Shown piece by piece: positions 1,402 through 48,200 of a stretch of DNA of 64,000 nt. The notes below the pieces were generated by a model. The model did no database searches. It saw nothing but the letters and a program-made list of their open reading frames with translations, and was not told the DNA's origin. How positions within the stretch are numbered: position 1 is the stretch's first letter; each line of letters begins with the position of its first letter. Both the position numbers and the translations under genes were made by a program. Source of the stretch: Yuukianura sp. NJ FZ-2021 (lineage: Eukaryota); assembly GCA_046563655.1 (NCBI GenBank), contig CM102286.1:744001-808000 (forward strand), written 5' to 3'.

Positions 1402-1411
1402 TTTATTTATT
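1402..1411 (-). terminator. Overlapping AATAAA polyadenylation signals of the selenoprotein gene
   Basis: Minus strand reads AATAAATAAA just downstream of the SECIS, so the SECIS would fall inside the 3' UTR. Confidence 0.6.
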
Positions 1412-1424
1412 AGGTTGTGTTAAA

Positions 1425-1500
1425 TTCTTGAAGCAGAAATACATCACTGTGAAAGGGTCACTTTGTGCTTTGCCTTTGACAGGTCATGCGCTTCACAGAA
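1425..1500 (-). promoter_or_regulatory. SECIS element (eukaryotic type II) in the 3' UTR
   Basis: Minus-strand RNA: UUCUGUGAAGC-GC-AUGAC-CUGUCAAAGG-C-AAA-G-CAC-AAA-GUG-AC-CCUUUCACAG-UGAU-GUAUUUCU-GCUUCAAGAA. Helix I (UGAAGC/GCUUCA), AUGA...UGA core at 1487-1484 and 1446-1443, a 10-position helix II with one C.C mismatch, unpaired AAA, and a CAC/GUG apical mini-stem. Confidence 0.92.
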
Positions 1501-1557
1501 GTTGACAACTTTTTCCCCCCATAATTTTATAATTTTATGAATTTGTAATTTTATACT

Positions 1558-2622
1558 TTAAGAATTTGCTTTGAGACAGTCCAGCACTTGTGTCATTGTG
1601 GGTCGATCGAATGGATCTTTGGAATTGTACTGGAAAACGACAGTTCCATTTTTATCCAGAATCACATCTCCCGCCAATTGGAATGGATCGTCTCCAGGAT
1701 CTGGACAGCGACAAGTGAGACCAAACTTCTTAATTGCAGTTTTAACTGTGTCCGAACATCGGCTCTATTCAATACAATTTTCAAATTAACTAAAAACTTA
1801 ATATTTTTCCTGTAAAATTTGTTTTGTTTACCTGGAACATGGATTTGAACATTCCGAAATGCGTAAAAGCGTGACGGCCCTGCGACTGATCCAGATAAAA
1901 ATCAAAAATAAATCCCGTGTCTTCTCTCCATTGCAGTGCATCGGATTCTATTCCATACGACACTATGACGACCCTGCATCCAATGGCATCCAACTCGCTC
2001 TTCAAATTTCAAAATTTTAAATTAAAAAAAAACTTTTTTAAAAAAAAAGTTCAAATTTTACCTGTACAGAACAAATTGCTGCCAAATGGATGCGTCAGGG
2101 AGGTCACTTAAAGTAGCGAAGGTGCATGAGCCAAGTAAAGGCAAATCCACTTTTAGAGGCCAAGTCCTTCAGACTAATTTCTGCATTTTGTTCAGGGTGT
2201 TTACGGTACTTGGTTTCGTTCAATGGTTTTACCATAATATTGTCGAGGGAACTATTTGGAGGTTTACGGTAAACTTCACTCCATGCCACTTTCAAGGCGG
2301 CGTCCAATTCCCTCATGAAATTGTTCCATTGTAATTCGGCCAAATCGAATTCAGTTTCTATCTCCCAAAATATTTTTGTATCTTCGTTAGCAATCGAAGC
2401 AACTTTTTCACAAAATTCTTCGGAAGTTGTAACTTCAAATTTTTTGGAAAGTGTTATGTAGCAGGCAAATATTTCGTTAACTGTTGGCACATCTTCGTAT
2501 ATACACTTTTTAACACCTTTGGATTCAATTCCAACTTGAATTTTTCCGATTAACTGTTGAATTGAATTTCGAAATTCAGTTACAGATTGTAGTGCAGATT
2601 GATAAATCGAAGGTATCGCCAT
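1558..2622 (-). CDS. SELENOL: Selenoprotein L-type protein (thioredoxin-like/AhpC-TSA-type fold) with two in-frame Sec codons, motif UPPU; exons 2622-2062, 1999-1832, 1764-1558; 311 aa
   Basis: Reading through TGA 2106-2104 and TGA 2097-2095 gives WLMHLRYFK-U-PP-U-RIHLAAICSVQ, then a GT donor at 2061. Phase-0 introns join SELDAIGCRVVIVSYG...ALQWREDTGF.FDFYLD and DDPFQLAGDVILDKNGTVVFQYNSKDPFDRPTMTQVL, a SelL/AhpC-TSA-type C-terminus ending at TAA 1560-1558. SECIS lies downstream. Confidence 0.9.
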
Positions 2623-2779: not shown

Positions 2780-3277
2780 TTAGGCATCGTCGAATCCTGC
2801 AGGCGGTGGGCCAGCATTGGGATCCACCGTGTCAGTGCCGTCACAGACTTGAATTGAACTTGCGACAGACGCAAAATTGACCCAAGCCAAATTTGAAGTG
2901 CCGTAGGCATAACGCTGAAGTCGCAGAGCCTTGCCAGCACAATTTTTCTCTGTCCACAGTACGACACAAATGTCGTAAGTGTCGATGGACTTGGCAACTT
3001 TTCTCCACCCTTTTTTAATGTTGACGCAGGCTCCACTGGGTTTCGTCCATTGAACATAATTTTTTCCTAAAGAAATGGCGGCATTCCAATCATTGCGGAG
3101 TTTGAGTGAAAGTAATATTTCGAAAAAAAAAAATTGCGTCCACTTACCTCGAAAATTTGTTTGGGCGTAGAGGCGGACTGAACAAGCCCTCAGCCGAATT
3201 GATGTGACGCCTGGATCCTCTGCTGCTACTAAACATACGCATGCACAGCACAAAATGAACAACAACTTGAGCGCCAT
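2780..3277 (-). CDS. Small secreted Cys-containing protein, beta/gamma-crystallin-like pattern; exons 3277-3148 and 3066-2780 (~138 aa)
   Basis: Signal peptide MALKLLFILCCACVCLVAA. An 81-nt in-frame GTAAGT...TTTAG intron (3147-3067) explains the poly-F stretch in the ORF. The mature part has two crystallin-like half motifs (LYAQTNFRG...VAKSI and LWTEKNCAG...VASSIQV). Fold is assigned by pattern only. Confidence 0.7.
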   Translation of the reverse strand: MALKLLFILCCACVCLVAAEDPGVTSIRLRACSVRLYAQTNFRGKWTQFFFFEILLSLKLRNDWNAAISLGKNYVQWTKPSGACVNIKKGWRKVAKSIDTYDICVVLWTEKNCAGKALRLQRYAYGTSNLAWVNFASVASSIQVCDGTDTVDPNAGPPPAGFDDA

Positions 3278-4869
3278 CTCCTCTGTCTATCCCAACTAAA
3301 TAAATATTAGTTAGTCCTATTATCTTAATAATAATTACTCAATGACTATCTGTGCTAAATATGTGAGCATACTTATCTCTGCTAACGTACTTCGTAGTTT
3401 TCTGCTTCTGAAATTTTATTTTTGAAACTGGGATGATAAAGGCGAACTAGCCAAGTAATTTATACAATTTTTGGACTAATTTAATACAGCGGGTGAGACA
3501 CACATTATTACGAAACGAACCAATCAAAATGCGTCCTTAACAAAAATGTCACAATAAAGCATGGAAGAAAATATGTATTTATTAACTTCATTTCCATTTT
3601 TAATAAGAAATTTCATAAAAAAAAGGTGAAATTACTGAATATCTGATCAACTTTGACTAATCACTAATCAGAATTGATCACATTTGACTAACAAACTTTA
3701 CAACTATAGTAATAAAAATGTTATGTCAAAGGCCGTTGGTCTGATGCTTTTCAAAAATTGCATCATTCTCATTCATAGTAGTTAAGTAATTTACAGTTAA
3801 TTTTTTCGCTGTGCAGTTGGACTGTTACAATCGCGTTGTGAAAACTCAACATTACGGTTTTCAACTTTTTGAAAAACGCCACATAACCACATGGCGGTTA
3901 TATTTTCGGAAAAGTAAAAATCTCCATAAGAGGGATGAGGGACTATGTTATTGATTTTACCAACGTCACAGAAAAAAAAATGGACTATACATAAATCCAA
4001 CTTAAATGCACAACGAGAGTGAAGAGATATTAAAATTTGAAGTCGAATTTTTTTTTGAAAATTGATTGAAGTGCGTGGCTGGAGATAAATTTCAGTTTTC
4101 GTACAAAGGAGGCACATTTTTTTTGTTTGCTGAGCATCCTATTGTCTCATTTCCACAACAATTCGTTACTTAGCAACCGCCATGGTAAGAATGTATCTGT
4201 TGTTGTTTCTTCTGGAAGGGGTGAAATAGTGGAATGTAAAACCGTTGAAATTTTCTTTTCTGATTGTGAAGACTAAGCTCTGAAGACTTTCTTCTGTGAA
4301 GAGCGTTTGCGTTGAAGTGGGCGGGTGGTTTAGTGGTAAGGACTTTTGAAAACAAGCTTTTTTCTTCCCTGTTTGCCTTGAAGCAAAACAAAAAAGAAGC
4401 CAACACAGTTTAGTTTGAGCTCAGTTTTAAACTGGCCACGGCAATGTAAGCTACTACTCAAAATTTCGAACTTTTCCTCCTCTTAACAGTTTAAACATTG
4501 AATTTCAAATTACACTTTTAATAAACGTTTTTGTGTTTCGAAATTTTCAGCTTAGTTTATTCTCAGTTTAGTAAATTTTGAGGAGAATTTTGAACTTCTG
4601 TTCCAAATGTGTATTTTGTTTGTGGTTTTATGTAAATTCAGTTGCTATTTTGGTACATTGCGTAAAAGTGTTTACCTTGAACATAAACAACGTTTCAGCT
4701 TCTGGAGATGAGCGAAGATGAACTTTTGAGTACAGTGTGAGCGTCACTTTCAAAATTAGCACGAGGGTGTGTTGCTAAAGTGAATTTGTTAAGTCAACAC
4801 AAGGCCAATCCCTGCCTGTCGTCAACTAATTAGTGACTCTATTGTTATTGTTGCCAATTCATCTTCACA

Positions 4870-14008: not shown

Positions 14009-15075
14009 ATCCTTCTGGTCAAACTAAAATGATCCAAATCACAAGGAATCAGTTCAGCATACTTGTTCTAAATATAATGTTGTGCAAAATTACTTCAACG
14101 ATTTCGTTTCACGTTCGCAACATTAGGTCAATGCACCTTGATGTTCGAATCATTCAATTTCGTTCCAACACTGCCAATACCTGAAATTTATAGTAGAAGC
14201 TGACCTTGACACCTTGTTATCTGAATTCGCAAGGTAGTTTTCAATTAACAATTAGTAATTAGCAGACAAATACAACTCTGAAATCACAGCTGACTATGAC
14301 GAAAATACACACGTAAGTTCAAATGCAAGCTGACTAATTAAATGGATCTCGCTAACGGTTTCTTTTTTTCGTGAATCACTCACCTCAAAGCTGGGCATCC
14401 AAAATTGAACAACAAATTGTTAAATTCGTTGTTTGAACCAGAATGCTTCGCATTATTGCTGGGACTTCGCTCAAAACTCCCGTTTTTTTAAATAATGTCT
14501 TCCTCAGTGATCCACAAACTACAAGTTTTCAAAATATTATTTCCTTAAACATCTTCACACTTTCTAAGTTTCTAGCGTAGTACTTTTGGAAAATTAAACC
14601 ATGTTTAAAAACTAAAACTCCATAAGATGTACCACCTTGCTAGCTCTATAAACTGGTTCTCCGGCATCCCAATGACAATTTCCAAACAAGCTTGTTCATC
14701 GCCTCTAGACAATTACAATAACCGGTTTCTGTTTTTAGTGTGTAATGAATTTTCCTTTCTCTTTTTTCATTAATAAAACAGTAACATCAAGGTATTTGGC
14801 GAGGTAATGAAAAGTCACGCACTCACTTTTTCATCGATTCCAGTTTCAAAAACTTTTCGAAGTAATTAAGCAATGTTTATGTGATTTCCAATTTATAAAA
14901 AAAATGCTTCTCGCATCAAAATCTGTCTCCAAATTTTATCAATCTGAAACCCGTTTGATAATTCCAGTTCGCTTTTCAAGTGGAATACTTGAAGCTCTTT
15001 TTCCGGAATTTCTCGTAGAAGCGTAGAAGCCAGAGATCTTGGAGTTTGTCGCTGTGGAACATTCTGAAACAGAAG

Positions 15076-16924
15076 ATGGACGTTGTGATTTCTTGGGTGT
15101 TGGTTGTGCCACTGTTGGTTTTAATCAGTTGGTTGTTTTTGGCTAAAGGAAGAGCAAAGAAGTTGATTAAGAATACACATTGGGAAGATTTGAATGTTCA
15201 TGTGTGCGACACTTCAAAATTAGAGGCTGGATGGAATCTACTGCGCAAGGAAGAAGGCGTTCATGTCGCCGAGGGAAAAATTTACACCAAGATTCGAAAA
15301 GATGGATTCAAAAGTTATGTTGGTCTTTACGAACATAACATTCCGCTCATTTATGTCATCGACCCTGAACTAATCAAACACGTTTTGGTAATGAGTAATG
15401 ACAAATTGTACTTATTTTCAAATTTTTAAAAAACATCGCTAAAATTTATTTTTGGTCCAAGATCAAAGATTTCGACAGTTTCGTGGATCGGCGTACCGGA
15501 GATGTGGGAAAGTCAGATCGCCTGTTCTCACTAATTTTGAACAATCAGAAAGGTCAAGCCTGGAAAGACTTGAGGTCAACACTGAGTCCCGCTTTTACAA
15601 CTGGGAAGCTGCGCAGAATGTATCCGTTGTTCACCGATTCTTCTGAAAAGATGCTGAACTACATCCAAAATCAAACTAAAACGACACAAGATTTGGAGTT
15701 TGTTGATATAATGACACGATTTACAATGGACGTTATTGCTTCAGCAGCATTTGGACTGGATCCGGACAGTTTTGCAGCCGAGGACTCTCTATTCACCAAA
15801 TGCGCCTTGACTTTTCAAGATCGATATGCTTCCAAATGGTCACAACTGAAACTCGTCCTGAGCCTGTACTTTCCCAAAGTTTTTCTGTTTTTCCGAATTC
15901 CTCTCACGGATCACAACAACATGGCTACTTTTATTGGCATTGTACGTCAAGCAATTGCCCACCGAGAGAAATCTGGAGAGAAACGAGAAGATCTGCTTCA
16001 AATTCTAATGGACAACAGAGATCCGTCGGCAGTCTCCGCACAACCGAAAACATCCGAAGATTTGAAATCATTCGACAAAGATGCTGAAATCAAAAGCCCC
16101 GTGAAAAAAATTGCTCTAACGGAGGAGTTGGTCTTGGCTCAAAGCCTTTTGTTCTTTTTTGGAGGATTTAGTGGTCTTGAAGTGTTGATGCGCATGTGCT
16201 GCTATGAATTGTCTCTTAATCAAGACATTCAAGACAAGTTGTACCAAGAGATTAAAACTGCTGCGGACAAAAACAATGGAACACTGAATTATGACATCGT
16301 TATGAACGCAGAACACTTGGACAAAGTAATTAATGAGTCACTTCGGAAGTGGCCGTCCAGTACGCGCCTAGAGCGCATGAGCACAAAAGCCTACACATTC
16401 CCTGATCCAGAGCGAACTATTCCCAAGGACACTTTGACTCTAATTCCAGTTTATGCAATGCATCATGATGAACGTAAGTTTTCTAAAAAAAAACTTCATT
16501 TCAGAAATTGCTTGATTTCAAATCTGTTGAATCTAAAATGTAATTTTAAATTTTAATATCCAATTTGTTTTGAAAGATTATTACCCTAATCCAGACGTTT
16601 TTGACCCCGAGCGCTTCAATCCTGAAAACAAAGCAAAGCGACCAGCCTACACTTTCATACCGTTTGGTAATTTTTAATTTTTGTCAAATTATTAATTTCT
16701 TTTTCTAAATAAAATTTTGATTTTGAACGCTGCTAGGTGCTGGCCCTCGAATTTGCCTTGCTTTTAGATATGCAACGGCAGAAGCAAAAGTCGGAATTGC
16801 AAAATTGTTGCTGAAATATAAATTGCTCCCATCGGCCAAGACACAAGTTCCGCTTAAATTTCGAACCAACATGGGATTCAAACCACAAAACGGAATTTTC
16901 ATCCGAGTTGTTCCCAGACAGTGA
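15076..16924 (+). CDS. Microsomal cytochrome P450, CYP3 clan (CYP6/9-like), copy A; exons 15076-15387, 15462-16473, 16577-16666, 16737-16924
   Basis: N-terminal TM anchor, WKDLR (WxxxR), [15 protein letters not shown] (ExxR), DPERF and heme motif [11 protein letters not shown]. Introns are GT-AG and in frame. Confidence 0.93.
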
Positions 16925-17280
16925 AACACTGCCTCCAGAAAAATCACGCCCATTTTAGGTTTTTAGATATTCTTTTGCTTTAAATTTTCATGAATAAAAC
17001 ATGAAAATCAGCTTATTTGGTGACGTATTTAACAGTCATGCACTCACGTCTTGCTCATTTCCAGTTTAAAAGACATTTTTAAGTGATTTACTGATGATGC
17101 GTGAGTTTCAAAATCCTAAAAATCTGAAACCGGTTTCACAATTCCAATTCGCTTTTGAGGTTCTTCCATAGTTTATAGCATGCGTTTGCGTGTTTAGTGT
17201 GACGAGAGACAAGTGAGTCTTAGAATCCTTGGAATCTTGAGTTTTGTAGACATTTGAGTCGGAACAGTTTGAGAAAGAAG

Positions 17281-19104
17281 ATGGAAGTTGTGATTTCTTG
17301 GGTGTTGGTTGTGTCACTATTGGCTTTAATCAGTTGGTTGTTTTTGGCGAAAGGAAGAGCAAAGAAGTTAATTAAGAATACACATTGGGAAGATTTGAAT
17401 GTTCCTGTTTGCGACACTTCAAAATTAGAGGCTGGATGGAATCTATTGCGCAAGGAAGAAGGAGTTCATGTCGCCGAAGGGAAAATTTACAACAAAATTC
17501 GAAAGGATGGATTCAAAAGTTATGTTGGTCTTTACGAACATAACATTCCGCTCATTTATGTCATCGACCCTGAACTAATCAAGCATGTTCTGGTAATGGC
17601 AAATTGTATCCATTTGCAAAAGTAAAAAAAAAACGCTAAAAAGTTCATTTTTGGTCCATTTAGATCAAGGATTTCGACAGTTTTGTGGATCGGCGTACCG
17701 GAGATGTGGGAAAGTCAGATCGCCTGTTGTCTTTAATTTTGAACAATCACAAAGGTCAAGCTTGGAAAGACTTGAGGTCAACACTGAGTCCCGCTTTCAC
17801 AACCGGGAAGCTGCGCAGAATGTATCCATTGTTCACCGATTCTTCTGAAAAGATGCTGAACTATATCCAAAACCAAGCTAAAACGACGCAAGACTTAGAG
17901 TTTGTTGACATCATGACACGATTTACACTAGACGTAATCGCTTCAGCAGCATTTGGACTGGATCCGGACAGTTTTGCAGCCGAGGACTCTCAATTCACCA
18001 AATGCGCCTTGACCTTTCAAGATCGATATGCTTCTAAATGGTCACAATTGAAACTGGTCCTGAGCATGTACTTTCCCAAAGTTTTTCGGTTTTTCCGAAT
18101 CCCTCTGACGAATCACAATAATATTGGTATTTTTGTGGACATTGTACGACAAACTATCGCTTATAGAGCGAAATCCGGAGAAAGACGAGAAGATCTGCTG
18201 CAAATTCTAATGGACAGAAGAGATCCTTCGGCAGTCTCCGCACAACAGAAAACAGCCGAAGACTTCCAATCGTTTGACAAAGATGCTGAAATCAAAAGCC
18301 CCGTGAAAAAAGTAGTCTTAACTGAAGAGTTAGTTCTGGCTCAGAGCGCTATGTTCTTTTTCGGTGGATTCAGTGGCCTTGAGGTGTTGATGCGCATGTG
18401 CTGCTACGAATTGTCTCTTAATCAAGACATTCAAGAAAAGTTGTATCAAGAGATTAAAACTGCTGCGGACAAGAACAATGGAACACTGAATTATGACATT
18501 GTTATGAATGCTGAATACTTGGATAAGGTCATCAACGAATCACTCAGGAAGTGGCCGTCCAGTACACGCCTGGAGCGCATGAGCACGAAGGCCTACACAT
18601 TCCCGGATCCAGAACGAACTATTCCGAAGGACACTTTGACTCTAATTCCAGTTTATGCAATGCATCATGACGAACGTAAGTTTTCCAAAAAAAAAACAAC
18701 ATCTTTATTTAAAATTGTTTGTCAGTAACATTTAAATTTTAAATTAAATTTTTCTTAAGGTTATTACCCTAATCCGGACATTTTTGACCCCGAGCGTTTC
18801 AGTCCCGAGAACAAAGCAAAGCGACCAACCTACACTTTTATACCGTTTGGTAATTTTTAGTTTTTTTTTGTAATTATTGAAACTTTTAAATACAATTTTG
18901 ATTTTGGACGTTTCAGGTGCTGGCCCCAGAATTTGCCTTGCCTTCCGATATGCCACGGCAGAAGCAAAGGTTGGGATGGCTCAATTGCTGCTGAAGTATA
19001 AGTTGCTGCCATCGCGCAAGACAAAACTCCCGCTAAAATTTCGAACCAACATGGCATTCAAACCACAAAACGGAATTTTCATCCGAGTTGTTCCCAGAGA
19101 GTAA
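17281..19104 (+). CDS. Microsomal cytochrome P450, CYP3 clan, copy B (tandem paralog of A); exons 17281-17592, 17664-18675, 18760-18849, 18917-19104
   Basis: Same exon lengths and motifs as copy A with high protein similarity; intact heme motif [11 protein letters not shown]. Confidence 0.93.
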
Positions 19105-36200: not shown

Positions 36201-39200
36201 AGCTTTCTCGGTCGAGAGAAATGGATCCGGCTGAATTGGAAACCGTAAACACCAGCAGTCGACCTCCTTCATAAACAAATGAGTGGAGGAGGAGGGAGGA
36301 GGGAGTAGTGGCTTATAAGCCTCCTCCTCCCTCCTCCGGAGGAAAACAAAAGTGAAAGTTGCCGAGACTGGCTGCTATAGAGAAAGGAGGACAAAGAAGA
36401 AATTAGGCGTCGGAGAAAGTTGTGAGGTTCCAAAACAAGGTTTGAAATTAAATAGAAAAAGTAAATGGGGGGAAGGAGAAAGAGCTAAGGCCAGAGTTGA
36501 GTGTTATTAAGAAATCACTACTCTGCTTTTCCCTCTACTTTTCCAAAATTCTACTACTTTTCCAAATTTCTGCTTTTCTACAAAATTTTGAACAAAACGG
36601 AGCATTGTACTCCGTCGTCTAAACTTTCCGGCGTGAAGAGCCACTCTGGCGGCGTCACTGTCAAATTCATTTAGCCCCCTACTTTCTCCTCCTTTCTCTT
36701 AGCCTAATGACTACCAGAGTCTAATTAATAAAATGAAAAGGAAGACTGGGGAGTTATTGTTAACACAGAAACTGGAATTTATAGTTTTAAACTTTCCCCT
36801 TTCTCTCAAAAAACCAATGGATTTGGCACAATCAACTCTAATCTTAAACACTTCAGAGGCAAGATGGAGCACAGAAAATTTCAAACTCCAAAATCTCATC
36901 TTCTTCTCTCACTCAAAATTTTCCCTCATCTTTCTTCTTTTGCCGAAATTCACTTTTTTCTGTGTCTCTCCAAAATGAATGTTTAACGACCCAAAAAATT
37001 CGAAATAAAAGAAAAAGACATGAATTAAGTTTTCCGTCTTGAAGCCTTTTGAACTTTAGCCGCCTAATTTTTCTTGCTCTCCAAAATTCAAAAGTCAAAC
37101 AACTCAAATCTCCGCCTTTCTGACTTCTTCATCATCCCCACTGCAAAATTTAGTTTTTTCTCTTTTTTTTTTTCAATTTTACTCAAGTGGTTGTAATTAA
37201 TAAAAAGTGAGTCAAAATCCCTATCCATGAAGATTGTTTCTGAGATGAAATCTGCTGAAACTCGTGTTTGCGCCCGTGAAAAGTAAACCGCCTCCAGGCA
37301 AAGTTTACTCTCACCAGGGACAAGGTTCTACGCATAACCTGGTAAAAAGATTCAAAAAAATATGTTTTCACTTTCACCGTTAGGACTTCCTGTGTTCTGT
37401 GTGTGTTAAGAAGTGGAACGAAGGCCTTTGACCTATTGCCGCCTTGAGCTTCCGGCTATTTTGTAACAGTGAGCCATTTTAGCATTTCAATAGAAACCCC
37501 GCTTTCTCTTTCTTTTCCACTCCAAAAAGTGAAAAAGTGAAAGCAAGAAACAACATCAAGGAAATGTCGGAAGTCGACCAGTTGAACACCAAATCCCAAA
37601 ATTTGTCCATTTCATGAAAAAAAAATTCACTAAAAGCTAAATTTGAGCCTAAAAACTTTCTAGAATTACTCCGAAAAATTATTTTTGAACTCCCGGCTTC
37701 TTTTTGAATCAAAATGAGAGACAAGTTGATTTGAGAGCTTAACCCGTCGGAGACTTAAAACCGCAGTTTTCTGAGAACTCATCAAAGCAAAACCCCGGGA
37801 TGACATCCTTTTGTTTTCCAAATCCTACTCTACTGCCATCCAAGTTTGTGGCTCTCCGTCTCCACGTACAGAACAAACTACACGACCAAATCCAACTTTC
37901 ACTCTACCAAAAACTCTAATTTAAATCTCAAAATCCTCCTTTTCACAACAATTTCACTTGATCAAAATGACAGAAAATCAATCCACAAAATATAAATCAA
38001 ACGGACAACTATCAAAGAGAACCCGCACACAGTTTAGCATTAACAAAGCACAGCAGTAAGTAACTGGCAGCTCCACTTTCTCCAAATCTTCTGCAACATC
38101 ATTTAGAAACAACATGGGGCACATGTGTACACAGCAACCAGTAATTACTCTTCTGAAACCTTCCAAGAAAATTACAAAATCCTCCAAAATTCAACTCTTT
38201 TCAAATTCAAAAGTTTGCAACTTTCCCCCTCACCGCGAAAATTTCTACCAACTTCTCAAACTCCACGAAAAATTTGCACAAACACAAAACTCGGCAGGTA
38301 CTAACTGATTTTCCAATTTGAATTTGTGAAATTCACAGATTTTTTTTTACGGTTTGATTTAAATGAAGATGTCCTGAAGTTAACAAAACCTTTAACACTG
38401 ACGAAACCATTGACGTCGAATCTCTTCCTCTGTCACTCTGGATATTTTCCGTTTCGTAAAATTCCATTAGATTTGGAATTTTGGAGGGAGATTCAAAATT
38501 GAATAAACTTTCTACTTCCGTCTCCATCCCAAATCCCAAAGTTATCTGCCTCTCGTGACCTACTTTTAGTCTCCTTTGAGTTTGAGATCGGAAACTCTTG
38601 TCACCCAGACTCCCTCCTGCTGCCAAATGAATACATTCACCCATCCTCTAATCCACTTTCACTTCCAATCTCACACTCCGATTCAAATCCACACAAACTT
38701 TCACTCATTTTCCACCATCCACCTTCCTCTCGTCCACAATTATTGTTTACTCCTCCTTCCGCTAACTCAAATCCACACAATCTCTAAATTTTGCATCCCA
38801 TTTTCCATATCCACTCGAACAAAACACACGGTTTAGCCTGGCGTGACCAAAATTTCAAAATTTATCCCCGGGCCTTTTCCGGTCTTTCTAAAATTATCTA
38901 CAAAGGGTAAACTCTACTCAAAATATTGATCTCAATTTCACTTTTCACCAATCTATAGCACTACTAGTTAACATAACTGAGAACTTTTCAAAATTTCAAT
39001 TTATTTTATCTTTTTGGTTACTTGAACTTTTGAAAATTCAAATTCCATAGTTCCAAGTTTACTTTGAATTAAGTTATTGTTTTCCACAAAAGTTTGTTGT
39101 TTACAACTTCTTTTATTTACACAATCAACTTTTCATCTTGTCACATGACACTTGACACACAACATGGAGAAAGCGCGGGAAAAAGAAGTGGGAGAAACAC

Positions 39201-45200: not shown

Positions 45201-48200
45201 ACCCGCCCCCGACTGGGGGTCAATGACCTCTGCGCAAAAAGCACTAAAAGATCAAAGGTCAAGCTCCGCTTTACCCTCACTCTCTTTAAAGATTCAAAAC
45301 TTCCACATTTTCGCTTAAAAAATCAATAATCTTGGTAAAGAAAATTGAAATCCTTCCTTATTTTGGTCTTTTTGACGAATTTGCTTTAAAAAATGTAAAA
45401 ATTTCTAGTACTTTGTTGTAAATTCAAAATTTTGCTTACCTAGAACGTTGATCCAAGCATCTGCTCTGATGGCCGTGTTAGTTTTCGTGGGGCCAACTTG
45501 ACACTGGTACTCGCTGATGTCCTCGAGTGAAACGTTCACAATTCTTAAATTGTGGATGCCCCGCCCAGCGTCTCCCACCATTGAGTAGCGCGGGAAATGC
45601 GGAATACTACGTTCAAATCCTAAAAATTAAAAAAAAAAGACAACATTACACATAAAAAATTTCACAAAATTAAACACATTTTCTTAAAACTTCCACATTT
45701 CTAAACTTCTAACAACTCGTAGAGCATTTAACTTCAATTTTCGCTCTATTTTTTGTTCTTTCAAAAACATTCCTAAATTCGCGCTTTTTTTAAACAACTT
45801 TCTTCCGACAAATGCCTTTTTTCCACAACCTCCGTTTCTCTTATCCTATTTTTGTGAAAATGGGATTCTCTTAAGCTAAAACGATTCCATTGAGCTTGTG
45901 GAAAAGTGAAGAAAGAAAGCAGTCGATTCGTCTCGTTCATCAACTTTCTTTTCTCTGCTTTTTGTGCAAAGTAAAAGTGAAAAGAAGGGGAAATGGGACC
46001 TAATGGAGTCTGATAAAAACGTTTCCCTTGATTACAGACTCGGATATTTCTCACAGTTGCTCGAGAAACCAAAAACTCAGTCTAAACCAACACTTTCTCC
46101 AACTTTCTCTTCTCCATCCAGTTTAAGTCATGGATAAAAGTAGAGAGTGGGAAGAACTACTTGCATAATTTCTCCTCTTAATCAAAGAGAGACAGCCACA
46201 AGAGAAGAAGAACAAAGAAGCGTCAGTGCGGGAACGTCGTGATGGTGGTTCAACCAACTTTCAAATGCAACCAAACTCAAAGAAAAAGAAAAGCAAATAA
46301 CCAAAAAAGACTTTTTTCTCCTTTAGCTACACTTTTTCTTCAAAATGAAACTTTTTTTTTAAATAAACGAAAAAGAGAGGGGAGAGAAAACGAAGAAGAT
46401 GAACGTGCAGAACATTACGTATTCAATTCCCTTTCTCCCGCCTTGTACCTTTTCCTTTCTTATGCACCACCACTTTCAAATAAGAGAGAAGAACATGCAA
46501 CAAAGTACACAAGAGACGAGCATGGTGGCTTTGAGTGATAGAAAAGTTTTGGTGGCTCATGTGGTGGGGCTTTGGTGGGTCTCGTAGTGGTGAGAGAAAG
46601 TTTCAAATGAGAAATTCCTAAAAAGAATGCTACTTTCTATGAGCTCAAAATAAATTGTTCCTATTTCTCTTTTCCCCTCGACGCCTCCACTCCCTTCCGC
46701 TTTTGTCAATACTAAAAAACGCAAGTTCACAATTTCAGTTTCACCATTTGCCACTTTTTCAAAAAAAAATGGAACAAAAATCTAAAAAGCAAAGACGACA
46801 TTTTCCTAACAGCAAAAAGACTGACAGCCTTCCACGAATCTTTAATTTCAATTTTCTTCAGCCTCAATTCACGCGGTTCCCGCTTTTTTTTCAATTCGCA
46901 AAGAAAAAACTTTCTCTTAAATAAACTAAAAAAAACATGTTGAATTTTTCATTTTTTGGATAGTGGATAACCTAAATTTTTAAGTTTTACTTAAAAATTG
47001 AGAAATCGATTTGGTAAATTTATTTGACCGAGTCCCGGGATTTAAGATCCAAAAAAAGAAATTTTCCAAAGTAAATAGCAGCAAGAGAAAAAAAATGACA
47101 TAATTACGCGAAGTCAGCAATAAGTTTTCCCTTGGCTAAGAAACTTCGTGGAGCCCAGAGTTTTTTTTTCCTCAAAAAGAAAAAAACGAAAAGCATTTCT
47201 CTTTTAAGAATATTTCTAAAAAGCAATGCCCATCCTTCTGTAACCCAAAAACTCTAAACTTTCCCGCGTCTTTTTTTTTTCGGAAAAAGTACAAGAAAAG
47301 TTATCGTAAAACTCCATTTTGCTCAGGAACGGAACACTAAACCAACTTTGTGTCTTTAAGTTTCTGCTCTTGGGCTCTCCTTTTTGCTTCTGTTGAGAGA
47401 TGGATGTTATCTATTTCCCAACCACCTACGCTATGTCCATACTTTGCCTCCCAAAATGAGGATATCCTCAATTCATAACTCTCCAATCCTAAAAAACCCA
47501 AATTAAATTAGAAACCAGCAAAATTGGCCCAGAAATCCTCAAAATCCAAAATTTTCTAATTCGCAAATTCCTTTACCATACCTGTGAAAACTCCTGAATT
47601 CAAGTCCTCATTTTTTGAGGACTTTTTGTTTTACGAGTCCTCTTTTGAATAAAAATTGAGGATGTCAGCAATGCCATTAGAAAAGTAGTGGGGCAGATGC
47701 AGTCGCAAGCCAACTTCTTAACCTTATGACTCGGAATGGAATAAACTCCTTCTACAACGACGCTTATCCCCTCTCTCCAAACAGAGAGAGCTTTTTATAC
47801 CACGAAAACTGAAATAGTAGCAGGAAATTCAAAGTCCAACTTTCCAGCGAACCTAAATGTCCATTTTATATCCCTTCTGTGACAAATAGGAGGACCAAGG
47901 GCCCTCAATTTCAAAAAACTCCCAACTTTATCTTCCGCTTCGCCTTCAAAGTTATCCCGGAGGCCATCGCCCTCTCTTCATTCAACATATTTTCCACAAC
48001 CCTACTTTCACTTTTGAAGTTTACAGTTTAAATTCCTCCCAACATACTGCGGTCCAAAAACTACTAAAATTCCTACCAAAACTTCAAAACGGAGAGCCAT
48101 TTTGGTGACCCATGAAACCAAAATTGTTTAAACCAAGAGAAAGTCCGCTTGTTTCCCGCGGGCTTTCTCCGCACAGAACACAAAAAAATAGTTTTCTTAA

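What the first reader, a model, noticed from the sequence alone, without database searches (positions are those of the whole stretch)
1425..2622. Hidden double-selenocysteine (UPPU) selenoprotein L gene with its own SECIS in an arthropod genome
Seen: two in-frame TGA codons separated by Pro-Pro (2106-2104 and 2097-2095, residues 173 and 176) lie where a thioredoxin-type CxxC would, after a hydrophobic strand (WLMHLRYFK) and before a helix (RIHLAAI). The frame stays open to a splice donor, two more phase-0 exons complete the domain, and a canonical SECIS precedes the AATAAA. Established: a UxxU motif forming a diselenide bond defines the SelL family, described mainly from aquatic organisms, while well-studied insects such as Drosophila keep very few selenoproteins and lack SelL. 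Inference: this is a functional SelL that standard gene callers would truncate or split. If the organism is a terrestrial hexapod, it extends the known range of the family. UPPU in an LRYFK context also appears to differ from the ULPU-type motif I recall for SelL.
Basis: partly seen in the sequence, partly recalled or inferred. Interest (0 to 1): 0.92.

Follow-up and report, generated by a model that had tools for sequence, protein, structure and literature searches.

The report
Two-selenocysteine SelL-like gene in springtail-like genome
This is a real three-exon gene for a redox protein whose two active-site residues are "stop" codons read as selenocysteine, and it sits in what looks like a springtail genome, although this protein type is described as almost entirely restricted to aquatic organisms.

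Summary
On the minus strand, ATG 2622 opens a 311-codon gene of three phase-0 exons, with in-frame TGAs at 2106-2104 and 2097-2095 (U-P-P-U).

- **Ortholog.** The only relative among 1.84 billion representative proteins is a metagenome gene call that stops exactly before the first TGA. Its DNA (L001) keeps TGA-CCN-CCN-TGA and the same exon structure.
- **Selection.** Identity is 42% before the TGAs and 76% after them, with synonymous sites saturated.
- **SECIS.** Both 3'UTRs carry an AUGA...AA...GA hairpin, and 5 of its 10 upper-helix pairs changed compensatorily. Rfam's SECIS models did not report it.
- **Extra hairpin.** A very stable stem-loop starts just after the second UGA and spans the exon 1/2 junction.
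- **Family.** All three exons tile NCBIfam "SelL-related redox protein" in order, below its cut-off, and it is the only NCBIfam family hit. Both U residues align on that family's CxxC.
- **Host.** Neighbouring P450 genes group with Collembola.

Verdict: a genuine SelL-type diselenide selenoprotein, a new member of a known kind. Still open are direct comparison with animal SelL, the Sec machinery and transcripts.

The parts
2062..2622 (-). Exon 1 (187 codons). It holds the start ATG at 2622-2620, a roughly 140-residue N-terminal helical region, and the first strand, the UPPU motif and the start of the first helix of the thioredoxin fold.
   Evidence: The ortholog P0001/L001 aligns over residues 12-172. 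NCBIfam NF040769 matches residues 143-183 to profile positions 7-47.
2104..2106 (-). First in-frame TGA (codon 173), read as selenocysteine; followed by C.
   Evidence: It is conserved as TGA in L001 at 751-753 and aligns on the first Cys of the bacterial CxxC.
2095..2097 (-). Second in-frame TGA (codon 176), read as selenocysteine; followed by C.
   Evidence: It is conserved as TGA in L001 at 760-762 and aligns on the second Cys of the bacterial CxxC.
2000..2061 (-). Intron 1 (62 nt, GT...AG, phase 0).
   Evidence: L001 has a 79-nt intron at the same codon position.
1832..1999 (-). Exon 2 (56 codons), the middle of the thioredoxin fold.
   Evidence: Pfam AhpC-TSA_2 E 4.3e-4. NF040769 profile positions 53-105. 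70% identical to L001 exon 2.
1765..1831 (-). Intron 2 (67 nt, GT...AG, phase 0).
   Evidence: L001 has a 73-nt intron at the same codon position.
1558..1764 (-). Exon 3 coding part (68 codons) plus the TAA stop at 1560-1558; the C-terminal third of the fold.
   Evidence: NF040769 profile positions 132-173, E 1.1e-9. 81% identical to L001 exon 3.
1425..1500 (-). SECIS-like element in the 3'UTR.
- Lower helix: 1500-1490 pairs with 1434-1425.
- Core: AUGA at 1487-1484 opposite GA at 1445-1444.
- Upper helix: 10 bp, 1482-1473 with 1456-1447.
- Apex: unpaired AAA at 1471-1469, then a 3-bp mini-stem.
   Evidence: 5 of 10 upper-helix pairs are compensatory against L001; pattern scan. Rfam did not report it.
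1406..1411 (-). AATAAA polyadenylation signal, 14 nt after the SECIS-like element.
   Evidence: L001 has AATAAA at 1452-1457 in the same relative place.
2062..2096 (-). 5' half of a very stable hairpin that begins just after the second UGA (candidate Sec redefinition element).
1970..1999 (-). 3' half of the same hairpin. It lies in exon 2, so the stem is contiguous only in the spliced mRNA.
   Evidence: The weak Rfam miRNA/U2 'matches' at 1931-2104 are this inverted repeat with the intron inside.

Best explanation
A functional three-exon gene encodes a 311-residue selenoprotein. It has an N-terminal helical region of about 140 residues with no detectable relatives, followed by a peroxiredoxin-like (AhpC-TSA_2 / SelL-related) thioredoxin fold. 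The CxxC redox motif of that fold is written U-P-P-U by two UGA codons.

Inferred mechanism:
- One SECIS element in the 3'UTR recruits the Sec-insertion machinery for both UGAs.
- A strong stem-loop just 3' of the second UGA, formed across the exon 1/2 junction of the spliced mRNA, probably slows the ribosome and favours Sec insertion over termination.
- The two selenocysteines then cycle between diselenide and diselenol as a low-potential redox centre, as described for SelL.

The host is most likely a springtail-lineage hexapod.

Shown: the gene structure, conservation of both UGAs and of the downstream frame, the two RNA structures, and alignment of U/U on the family's C/C.
Inferred: Sec (rather than another residue) at the UGAs, the diselenide, the role of the hairpin, and orthology with animal SelL.
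For: 1. **A single ortholog, truncated at the UGA.** phmmer of exon 1 against 1.84 billion representatives gave 2 proteins at E <= 0.001. One is a spurious repeat protein. The other, P0001 (E 6.2e-35, 44% identity), ends exactly at the residue before the first TGA.
2. **Its DNA keeps the motif and the exons.** L001 reads TGA CCT CCG TGA and has the same three phase-0 GT-AG exons.
3. **Purifying selection on the frame after the UGAs.** Upstream of TGA1: 169 codons, 42% amino-acid identity, pN 0.41. Downstream of TGA2: 135 codons, 76% identity, pN 0.14, pS 0.74 (saturated).
4. **SECIS-like hairpin in both 3'UTRs.** It has AUGA/GA, a 10-bp upper helix and unpaired AA. 33 of 34 cells are paired and 5 of 10 upper-helix pairs changed on both sides, against 18-47% paired when partners are slid. 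My own SECIS pattern finds 3 sites in the window's 128 kb against a mean of 1.1 in 30 Markov-shuffled copies. One of the three lies 70 nt after this stop codon. The only site in L001 lies about 40 nt after its stop codon.
5. **Hairpin after the UGAs.** The 75 nt from UGA1 fold at -36.1 and -33.6 kcal/mol (z -5.5 and -4.7; 0 of 300 shuffles as stable). It is the most stable 75-nt window of each CDS. Of 21 consensus pairs, 0 are broken.
6. **Family.** For all 6 exon peptides the only NCBIfam hit at E <= 10 is NF040769, SelL-related redox protein. The hits are colinear: profile 7-47, 53-105 and 132-173. The best Pfam hit is AhpC-TSA_2, as for a true bacterial member. Generic Prx-like proteins instead hit 10-15 NCBIfam families and Pfam AhpC-TSA. 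An HMM and an hhalign profile built from 6 true bacterial members place U173 and U176 on their CxxC (hhalign probability 96.3, 155 columns).
7. **Host.** The best named relatives of the neighbouring P450 are Collembola, and a tree groups the window's P450s with them (SH-aLRT 89). A collembolan genome paper lists 6 tRNA-SeC predictions and 4 SECIS elements (PMC5644144, passage).
Against: - **Rfam reports no SECIS.** Its covariance models found none in four scans, even on 161-201 nt at E <= 10.
- **The hairpin's folding energy is unremarkable.** z is -1.3 and -0.9.
- **L001's loop reads AAU, not AAR**.
- **Family scores are sub-threshold.** NF040769 gives 14.7 + 16 + 38.2 bits in pieces against a cut-off of 120.
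- **Profiles do not separate the subfamilies.** My 6-member HMM gives the spliced proteins only 25 and 23 bits, no better than generic Prx-like proteins at 29 and 21 bits. hhalign scores those generic CxxC proteins as high as the true members (64 against 62).
- **No animal SelL was compared.**
- **No expression or machinery evidence.** No RNA run was listed, no genome is held, and the window has no tRNA gene.
- **Covariation rests on two sequences only.** 27 of 500 shuffles reach the observed values.
- **The host assignment rests on one fast-evolving gene family**, at 41% best named identity.
Confidence: 0.8

Rival explanations
1. It is a real two-Sec selenoprotein but not an ortholog of animal SelL. 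On this reading it belongs to another branch of the AhpC-TSA_2 / Prx-like CxxC superfamily (for example SelU/PRXL2-like, or a soil-arthropod-specific lineage) that converted both cysteines to Sec independently.
For: - Only one relative was found among 1.84 billion representatives, and no SelL-named protein was recovered.
- Profile comparisons do not separate SelL-related members from a neighbouring generic CxxC Prx-like group.
- NCBIfam holds only prokaryotic families, so a SelU-type alternative could not compete.
- The N-terminal region has no detectable relatives.
Against: - UxxU at the redox motif of a Prx-like fold, served by one SECIS, is how the citing papers describe SelL (PMC4989117; PMC3316567).
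- NF040769 is the sole NCBIfam hit for all six peptides. That includes a specific 38-bit match to its C-terminal 42 positions, which most generic Prx-like hits do not cover.
Confidence: 0.17
2. The UGAs are not decoded as Sec. Either translation stops at codon 173, giving a 172-residue helical protein, or the UGAs are read through by a standard tRNA, and the 3'UTR hairpin is not a SECIS.
For: Rfam's SECIS models do not report the hairpin. There is no expression or Sec-machinery evidence.
Against: - The frame after the UGAs is more conserved than the frame before them, with saturated synonymous sites.
- Both UGAs sit exactly on a redox CxxC, where Sec is the usual replacement for Cys.
- The AUGA/GA/AA hairpin is conserved, with compensatory changes, at the same place in both species.
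- Other exons in the window, such as the 345-384 codon P450 exons, are open under the standard code, so TGA is not a general sense codon here.
Confidence: 0.03
3. It is a decaying pseudogene, or a chance arrangement of ORFs, stops and a hairpin.
For: None beyond the two in-frame stops themselves.
Against: - There are no frameshifts or other stops in either species.
- Splice sites and intron phases are conserved.
- pN is 0.14 against pS 0.74 downstream.
- Both RNA structures are conserved.
Confidence: 0.01

Closest known systems
Selenoprotein L (SelL / SELENOL; Shchedrina et al. 2007, known here only through citing papers)
   Same: - Two Sec residues two residues apart (UxxU) in the redox motif of a peroxiredoxin-like thioredoxin fold.
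- A single 3'UTR SECIS serves both UGAs (PMC4989117; PMC3316567; PMC13134290).
   Different: - SelL is described as restricted, or almost restricted, to aquatic organisms (PMC2397514; bioRxiv 10.1101/2025.10.02.680026). It is not in the centipede selenoprotein list (PMC4244043 Table S26). This gene sits in a probably collembolan genome.
- Direct sequence comparison with animal SelL was not possible.
- Whether animal SelL has the N-terminal helical region or the post-UGA hairpin is unknown to me.
Bacterial SelL-related redox proteins (NCBIfam NF040769)
   Same: - The thioredoxin domain matches colinearly from end to end.
- The L-R-[HY]-F-x-[CU]-x-x-[CU]-R context is shared around the redox motif, and the F-Q-x-x-G...D-R-P context near the C-terminus.
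- The Pfam preference for AhpC-TSA_2 is the same.
   Different: - The bacterial members I fetched carry CxxC and no UGA. They are single-domain or fused to a membrane region, and they score 127-166 bits (13 of 401 Bacteroidota genomes).
- This protein scores 69 bits summed over its pieces, has introns and a eukaryotic SECIS, and carries a helical N-terminal extension.
SelU / PRXL2 family (eukaryotic AhpC-TSA_2 proteins)
   Same: Same Pfam domain family at the level of the weak exon-2 match. The family also includes selenoprotein forms in fish (PMC3316567).
   Different: No SelU sequence or profile was available for comparison. I recall SelU as having a single Sec, and that comes from no call.
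Sec redefinition elements (SRE) of SELENON and SELENOT
   Same: A stable stem-loop a few nucleotides 3' of the UGA-Sec codon, conserved between species (PMC8704476, passage).
   Different: - Here it follows a pair of UGAs.
- It starts only 1-2 nt after the second UGA.
- It is interrupted by an intron in the gene, so it exists as a contiguous stem only after splicing.
- Its function is untested.

Membership tests
Selenoprotein L (SelL) | Two in-frame UGA codons forming a UxxU motif | tested here: met
   TGA at codons 173 and 176 with Pro-Pro between them. Both are conserved as TGA in the ortholog L001.
Selenoprotein L (SelL) | UxxU occupies the CxxC redox position of a peroxiredoxin-like thioredoxin fold | tested here: met
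   An HMM and an hhalign profile of 6 bacterial SelL-related members put U173 and U176 on their CxxC. The colinear NF040769 match places them at about profile positions 37 and 40.
Selenoprotein L (SelL) | A single SECIS element in the 3'UTR serves both UGAs | tested here: met
   There is one AUGA...AA...GA hairpin in each 3'UTR, with 5 compensatory pairs. Caveat: Rfam's SECIS models do not report it, and SECISearch3 could not be run.
Selenoprotein L (SelL) | Sequence relationship (orthology) to fish or invertebrate SelL | not testable with these tools
   - No animal SelL sequence was returned by any search.
- The defining paper is not held.
- The spliced protein may not be sent to the database tools.
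Selenoprotein L (SelL) | The two Sec residues form a diselenide bond | not testable with these tools
   This needs protein chemistry. It is inferred only from the UxxU spacing.
NCBIfam NF040769 SelL_rel_redox (bacterial subfamily) | Whole-protein score at or above the curated cut-off of 120 bits | tested here: not met
   The three window exons, scanned separately, give 14.7, 16.0 and 38.2 bits; L001 gives 15.3, 18.3 and 35.7. True members score 127-166 bits. I therefore do not file it as a member of this bacterial subfamily, only as a relative.
Pfam PF13911 AhpC-TSA_2 | Score at or above the gathering threshold of 27 bits | tested here: inconclusive
   Only single exons could be scanned. Exon 2 gives 21.1 bits (window) and 24.8 bits (L001) on profile positions 7-56 of 114. 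Exon 3 gives no Pfam hit.
Eukaryotic SECIS element | [quoted passage not shown] | tested here: met
   - Window: AUGA at 1487-1484 opposite GA at 1445-1444, with AAA at 1471-1469.
- L001: AUGA, GA, and AA followed by U, so the R is not kept.
- The Rfam gathering score was not reached.
Selenoprotein (any) | The genome encodes tRNA-Sec and the Sec synthesis and insertion factors | not testable with these tools
   No genome is held for the window and the window has no tRNA gene. There is indirect support only: another collembolan genome paper lists tRNA-SeC and SECIS predictions (PMC5644144).

The most novel reading that the evidence does not exclude
A terrestrial or soil hexapod lineage (springtails) has kept a SelL-type diselenide selenoprotein that the literature treats as a marker of aquatic life. 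It carries a lineage-specific helical N-terminal domain and a splice-dependent stem-loop right after the UGA pair that helps decode two adjacent UGAs. If so, SelL loss is not tied to leaving water, and hexapod selenoproteomes were reduced later and less uniformly than the insect-based picture suggests.
Probability: 0.45. Interest if true: 0.7.

Novelty: new member of a known kind. Interest (0 to 1): 0.6.

Why it matters
**Range of the family.** SelL is one of very few proteins with a natural diselenide redox centre. In the passages I read, it is restricted to aquatic organisms (PMC2397514). A 2026 preprint even uses it as an orthogroup that separates aquatic from terrestrial animals. Insects are the textbook case of selenoprotein loss (PMC2500217; PMC4244043). 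A conserved, selected UxxU gene in a probable springtail would move the family onto land-dwelling hexapods. It would also give a test case for when and why hexapods shed selenoproteins.

**Annotation.** The only public gene call for a relative is cut at the first UGA. Such genes are therefore invisible to orthogroup-based surveys.

**Mechanism.** The junction-spanning hairpin after the UGA pair is a testable candidate for a cis element that aids tandem Sec insertion.

Tried and rejected
- **RNA evidence.** No RNA holder was listed for 1380-2700, so no reads could be laid.
- **Whole genome.** None is held, so the Sec machinery was not searched. The window has no tRNA gene.
- **Word-indexed protein searches.** Exon 1 and the exon-3 alignment against longer proteins gave no hit.
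- **Prokaryote contigs.** The exon-3 patterns matched 324 stretches, none of them a relative.
- **L001's record.** It is not held for family search.
- **PDB by sequence.** Exon 1, exon 2 and exon 3 gave nothing meaningful; the only rows were Teneurin at E 0.17.
- **ESM Atlas.** The P0001 N-terminal region scored at most 0.88, which is uninformative. The P450 query gave only generic P450 clusters and no taxon help.
- **Structure of exon 1.** AlphaFold2 gave mean pLDDT 60. Residues 1-120 are helical and the partial thioredoxin part is unresolved. Foldseek against the PDB gave 0 matches at E <= 0.001, only generic helical bundles.
- **Rfam.** No SECIS family was reported in four scans. The weak miRNA/U2 rows at 1931-2104 are the post-UGA inverted repeat.
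- **Other SECIS-pattern sites in the window.** The site at 37132(-) has no supporting ORF. The site at 46345(+) is a low-complexity T/A run. I rejected both as chance.
- **Other ORFs on L001.** No family hit and no taxon clue.
- **Earlier findings of this scan.** None for this genome or sequence. The word search returned only UxxU/UxxC selenoprotein findings from other genomes.
- **Literature.** Six searches found no paper in the held library reporting SelL in an arthropod or hexapod. Shchedrina et al. 2007 is not held.
- **Supplements.** The SelL alignment of PMC3316567 is an image file. Those files may bear on the motif comparison (UPPU against the recalled ULPU).
Full report
**Observation.** ATG lies at 2622-2620. 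An open frame runs to TGA at 2106-2104 (codon 173), then CCT CCC, then TGA at 2097-2095 (codon 176). The same frame continues for 11 codons to CAG|GT at 2062/2061. Exon 2 (1999-1832, 56 codons) and exon 3 (1764-1561, 68 codons, then TAA at 1560-1558) follow after introns of 62 and 67 nt. All junctions are GT-AG and phase 0. The product has 311 residues. A hairpin with AUGA and GA lies at 1500-1425, and AATAAA lies at 1411-1406.

**An independent ortholog.** phmmer of exon 1 (TGA read as U/C) against 1.84 billion representative proteins returned 2 proteins at E <= 0.001. One is a 1146-residue repeat protein matching a 22-residue stretch six times, which I regard as spurious. The other, P0001, has 170 residues, E 6.2e-35 and 44% identity. 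It ends at the residue aligned with the one before the first TGA. It is a single JGI metagenome gene call on a 4876-nt contig.

I fetched that contig as L001. Its DNA continues TGA CCT CCG TGA. It has the same 11-codon tail to a GT donor, a 79-nt intron, a 56-codon exon 2, a 73-nt intron and a 73-codon exon 3. So a public gene caller did cut the relative at the first UGA, and both UGAs and the Pro-Pro spacer are conserved.

**Selection.** I spliced both genes inside a script and aligned them by codon.

| Region | Codons | Amino-acid identity | pN | pS |
|---|---|---|---|---|
| Upstream of the first TGA | 169 | 42% | 0.41 | 0.76 |
| Downstream of the second TGA | 135 | 76% | 0.14 | 0.74 |
| Exon 2 alone | 56 | 70% | 0.16 | 0.66 |
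| Exon 3 alone | 68 | 81% | 0.12 | 0.85 |

The two species are so far apart that silent sites are saturated. Even so, the frame after the "stops" is the best-conserved part of the protein. That excludes termination at codon 173, a pseudogene and chance. Large exons of other genes in the window are open under the standard code, so TGA is not a general sense codon here.

**SECIS.** In the window, AUGA at 1487-1484 lies 70 nt after the stop codon. It is followed by one base, a 10-bp helix (one C.C mismatch), an apical region beginning C-AAA and holding a 3-bp mini-stem, the returning helix, one base, and GA at 1445-1444. A lower helix closes the element. L001 has the same layout about 40 nt after its stop codon, with a perfect 10-bp helix.

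On the two-sequence alignment, 33 of 34 cells form standard pairs. Five of the 10 upper-helix pairs differ on both sides. Sliding the partners by 1-3 columns leaves 18-47% paired. 27 of 500 column shuffles reach the observed values, a weak statistic with only two rows.

I also wrote a SECIS pattern of my own: [AG]TGA, N, a helix of 9-12 pairs with at most one mismatch, a loop of 10-26 nt with AA among its first four bases, then N-GA. It finds 3 sites in the window's 128 kb (both strands), against a mean of 1.1 in 30 Markov-shuffled copies. One of the three is this site. It finds a single site in L001, again in the right 3'UTR.

These features match the AUGA:GA core and AAR loop motif given in PMC8704476 (passage), except that L001 has AAU.

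Against this reading:
- Rfam's covariance models reported no SECIS in four scans, even with very small search spaces.
- The folding energies are unremarkable (z -1.3 and -0.9).
- SECISearch3 was not available.

**A second RNA element.** Third-codon-position identity rises to 0.7 around codons 160-180. In the spliced mRNA, the 75 nt starting at the first UGA fold into a long stem-loop.

| Measure | Window | L001 |
|---|---|---|
| MFE of the 75 nt from UGA1 (kcal/mol) | -36.1 | -33.6 |
| z against 300 of my own shuffles | -5.5 | -4.7 |
| Shuffles as stable | 0 | 0 |
| Median MFE of 75-nt windows across the CDS | -11.8 | -14.1 |

It is by far the most stable 75-nt window of each coding sequence. 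The RNAalifold consensus has 21 pairs: 16 identical, 4 changed on one side, 1 compensatory and none broken.

The main stem begins 1-2 nt after the second UGA. Its 3' arm lies in exon 2, so it is contiguous only after splicing at exactly the predicted junction. This resembles the selenocysteine redefinition elements described downstream of the UGA in SELENON and SELENOT (PMC8704476, passage). Its function here is inferred. The weak miRNA/U2 rows are this inverted repeat.

**Family.** Spliced proteins may not be sent to the database tools, so exons were scanned separately.
- **NCBIfam.** For all six exon peptides (both species), the only family at E <= 10 is NF040769, "SelL-related redox protein". 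The three exons tile it in order: residues 143-183 to profile 7-47, exon 2 to 53-105, and exon 3 to 132-173. Scores are 14.7, 16.0 and 38.2 bits in the window, against a cut-off of 120.
- **Pfam.** The best hit is AhpC-TSA_2 on exon 2, at 21 and 25 bits.

To see the family's motif, I obtained bacterial genome handles. 13 of 401 Bacteroidota genomes held true members at 127-166 bits. The six I fetched carry a CxxC in an F-L-R-H-F-G-C-x-F-C-R context.

An HMM of these six aligns the spliced proteins from end to end and puts U173 and U176 on the two cysteines. The score is only 25 and 23 bits, no better than two generic Prx-like proteins at 29 and 21 bits. hhalign gives probability 96.3 (E 1.6e-9, 155 columns) against the members. 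It gives an equal score against those generic CxxC proteins, and probability 5.7 against BCP-type peroxiredoxins.

The hit pattern separates them better. The generic proteins hit 10-15 NCBIfam families, with BCP best, and Pfam AhpC-TSA at about 100 bits. A true member prefers AhpC-TSA_2, as this protein does.

I conclude that the domain belongs to the SelL-related / AhpC-TSA_2 branch of CxxC peroxiredoxin-like proteins, with U-x-x-U at the redox site. That is how the papers I could read describe SelL (PMC4989117; PMC3316567; PMC13134290). Orthology with animal SelL itself was not tested.

**N-terminal region.** Residues 1 to about 140 have no relative other than P0001, no PDB relative and no informative Atlas neighbour. 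AlphaFold2 predicts them as long helices at pLDDT 60-85, with only generic helical-bundle Foldseek matches. The function of this region is unknown.

**Host.** The window is animal DNA. It holds a tandem pair of P450 genes, an Ig/FN3 adhesion gene and an MFS-like transporter.

For one P450 exon, the three best hits are unnamed metagenome proteins (68%, 46% and 46% identity). The best named hits are Collembola: Allacma fusca at 41% and 39%, and Orchesella at 38% and 35%. Insect CYP9s follow at 36% or less.

I built a tree of 27 rows, chosen by me from the 120 listed hits: all 7 Collembola rows, 12 insects, 2 crustacean rows and 4 unnamed rows, plus the 2 window copies. It groups the window's P450s with all 7 Collembola rows (SH-aLRT 89) and apart from the insects and the crustacean. 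So the source is probably a springtail-lineage hexapod not represented in the protein databases. This rests on one gene family.

**Literature.**
- SelL is called restricted to aquatic organisms (PMC2397514, passage).
- Among vertebrates it is present only in fishes (PMC3316567; PMC13134290).
- It was found in sponge, placozoan, cnidarian, annelid and amphioxus, but not in the limpet (PMC3473315, table in the text).
- The centipede's 20-selenoprotein list has no SelL (PMC4244043, Table S26).
- The known insect selenoproteins are SelH, SelK and SPS2 (PMC2500217, passage).
- A collembolan genome paper lists 6 tRNA-SeC predictions and 4 SECIS hits (PMC5644144, passage).
- Six searches found no report of SelL in an arthropod. 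This holds for the held library only.

**Verdict.** This is a conserved, selected, two-UGA selenoprotein gene of SelL type, with its own SECIS and a candidate redefinition hairpin, in a probable springtail genome. It is a new member of a known kind. Its interest lies in the host lineage, in the annotation blind spot it exposes, and in the junction-spanning hairpin.

Noticed in passing
window 2096-2062 and 1999-1970 (minus strand); L001 about 761-795 and 875-905: A very stable stem-loop starts just after the second UGA and spans the exon 1/2 junction, so it is contiguous only in spliced mRNA. It is conserved in both species and is the most stable 75-nt window of each CDS. It is a candidate Sec redefinition element.
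   Followed up: partly
window 15019-16556 and 17224-18728 (+): A tandem pair of CYP9-like cytochrome P450 genes, 92% identical over 345 residues. Their nearest named relatives are Collembola P450s, and an unnamed metagenome protein is 68% identical.
   Followed up: partly
window 2783-3286 (-): The neighbouring upstream ORF has 168 residues with a signal-peptide-like start and only weak Pfam rows (Mucin, beta/gamma-crystallin; E 0.008 and 0.11). Its identity is unknown.
   Followed up: no
window 37132-37087 (-): A second match to my SECIS pattern (AUGA, a 9-bp helix, AA, GA). No conserved ORF with an in-frame TGA lies upstream, so I take it as a chance match.
   Followed up: partly
window about 28000-64000: There is a persistently negative GC skew (-0.15 to -0.27) over 36 kb, with Ig/FN3 exons on the minus strand at 24.9-29.9 kb. 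It may reflect one long minus-strand transcription unit or a compositional domain.
   Followed up: no
L132 and L133 (bacterial loci): In two of the six fetched Bacteroidota members, the SelL-related redox domain is the C-terminal part of a 329-342 residue open frame. The N-terminal half of that frame looks like several hydrophobic membrane helices.
   Followed up: no
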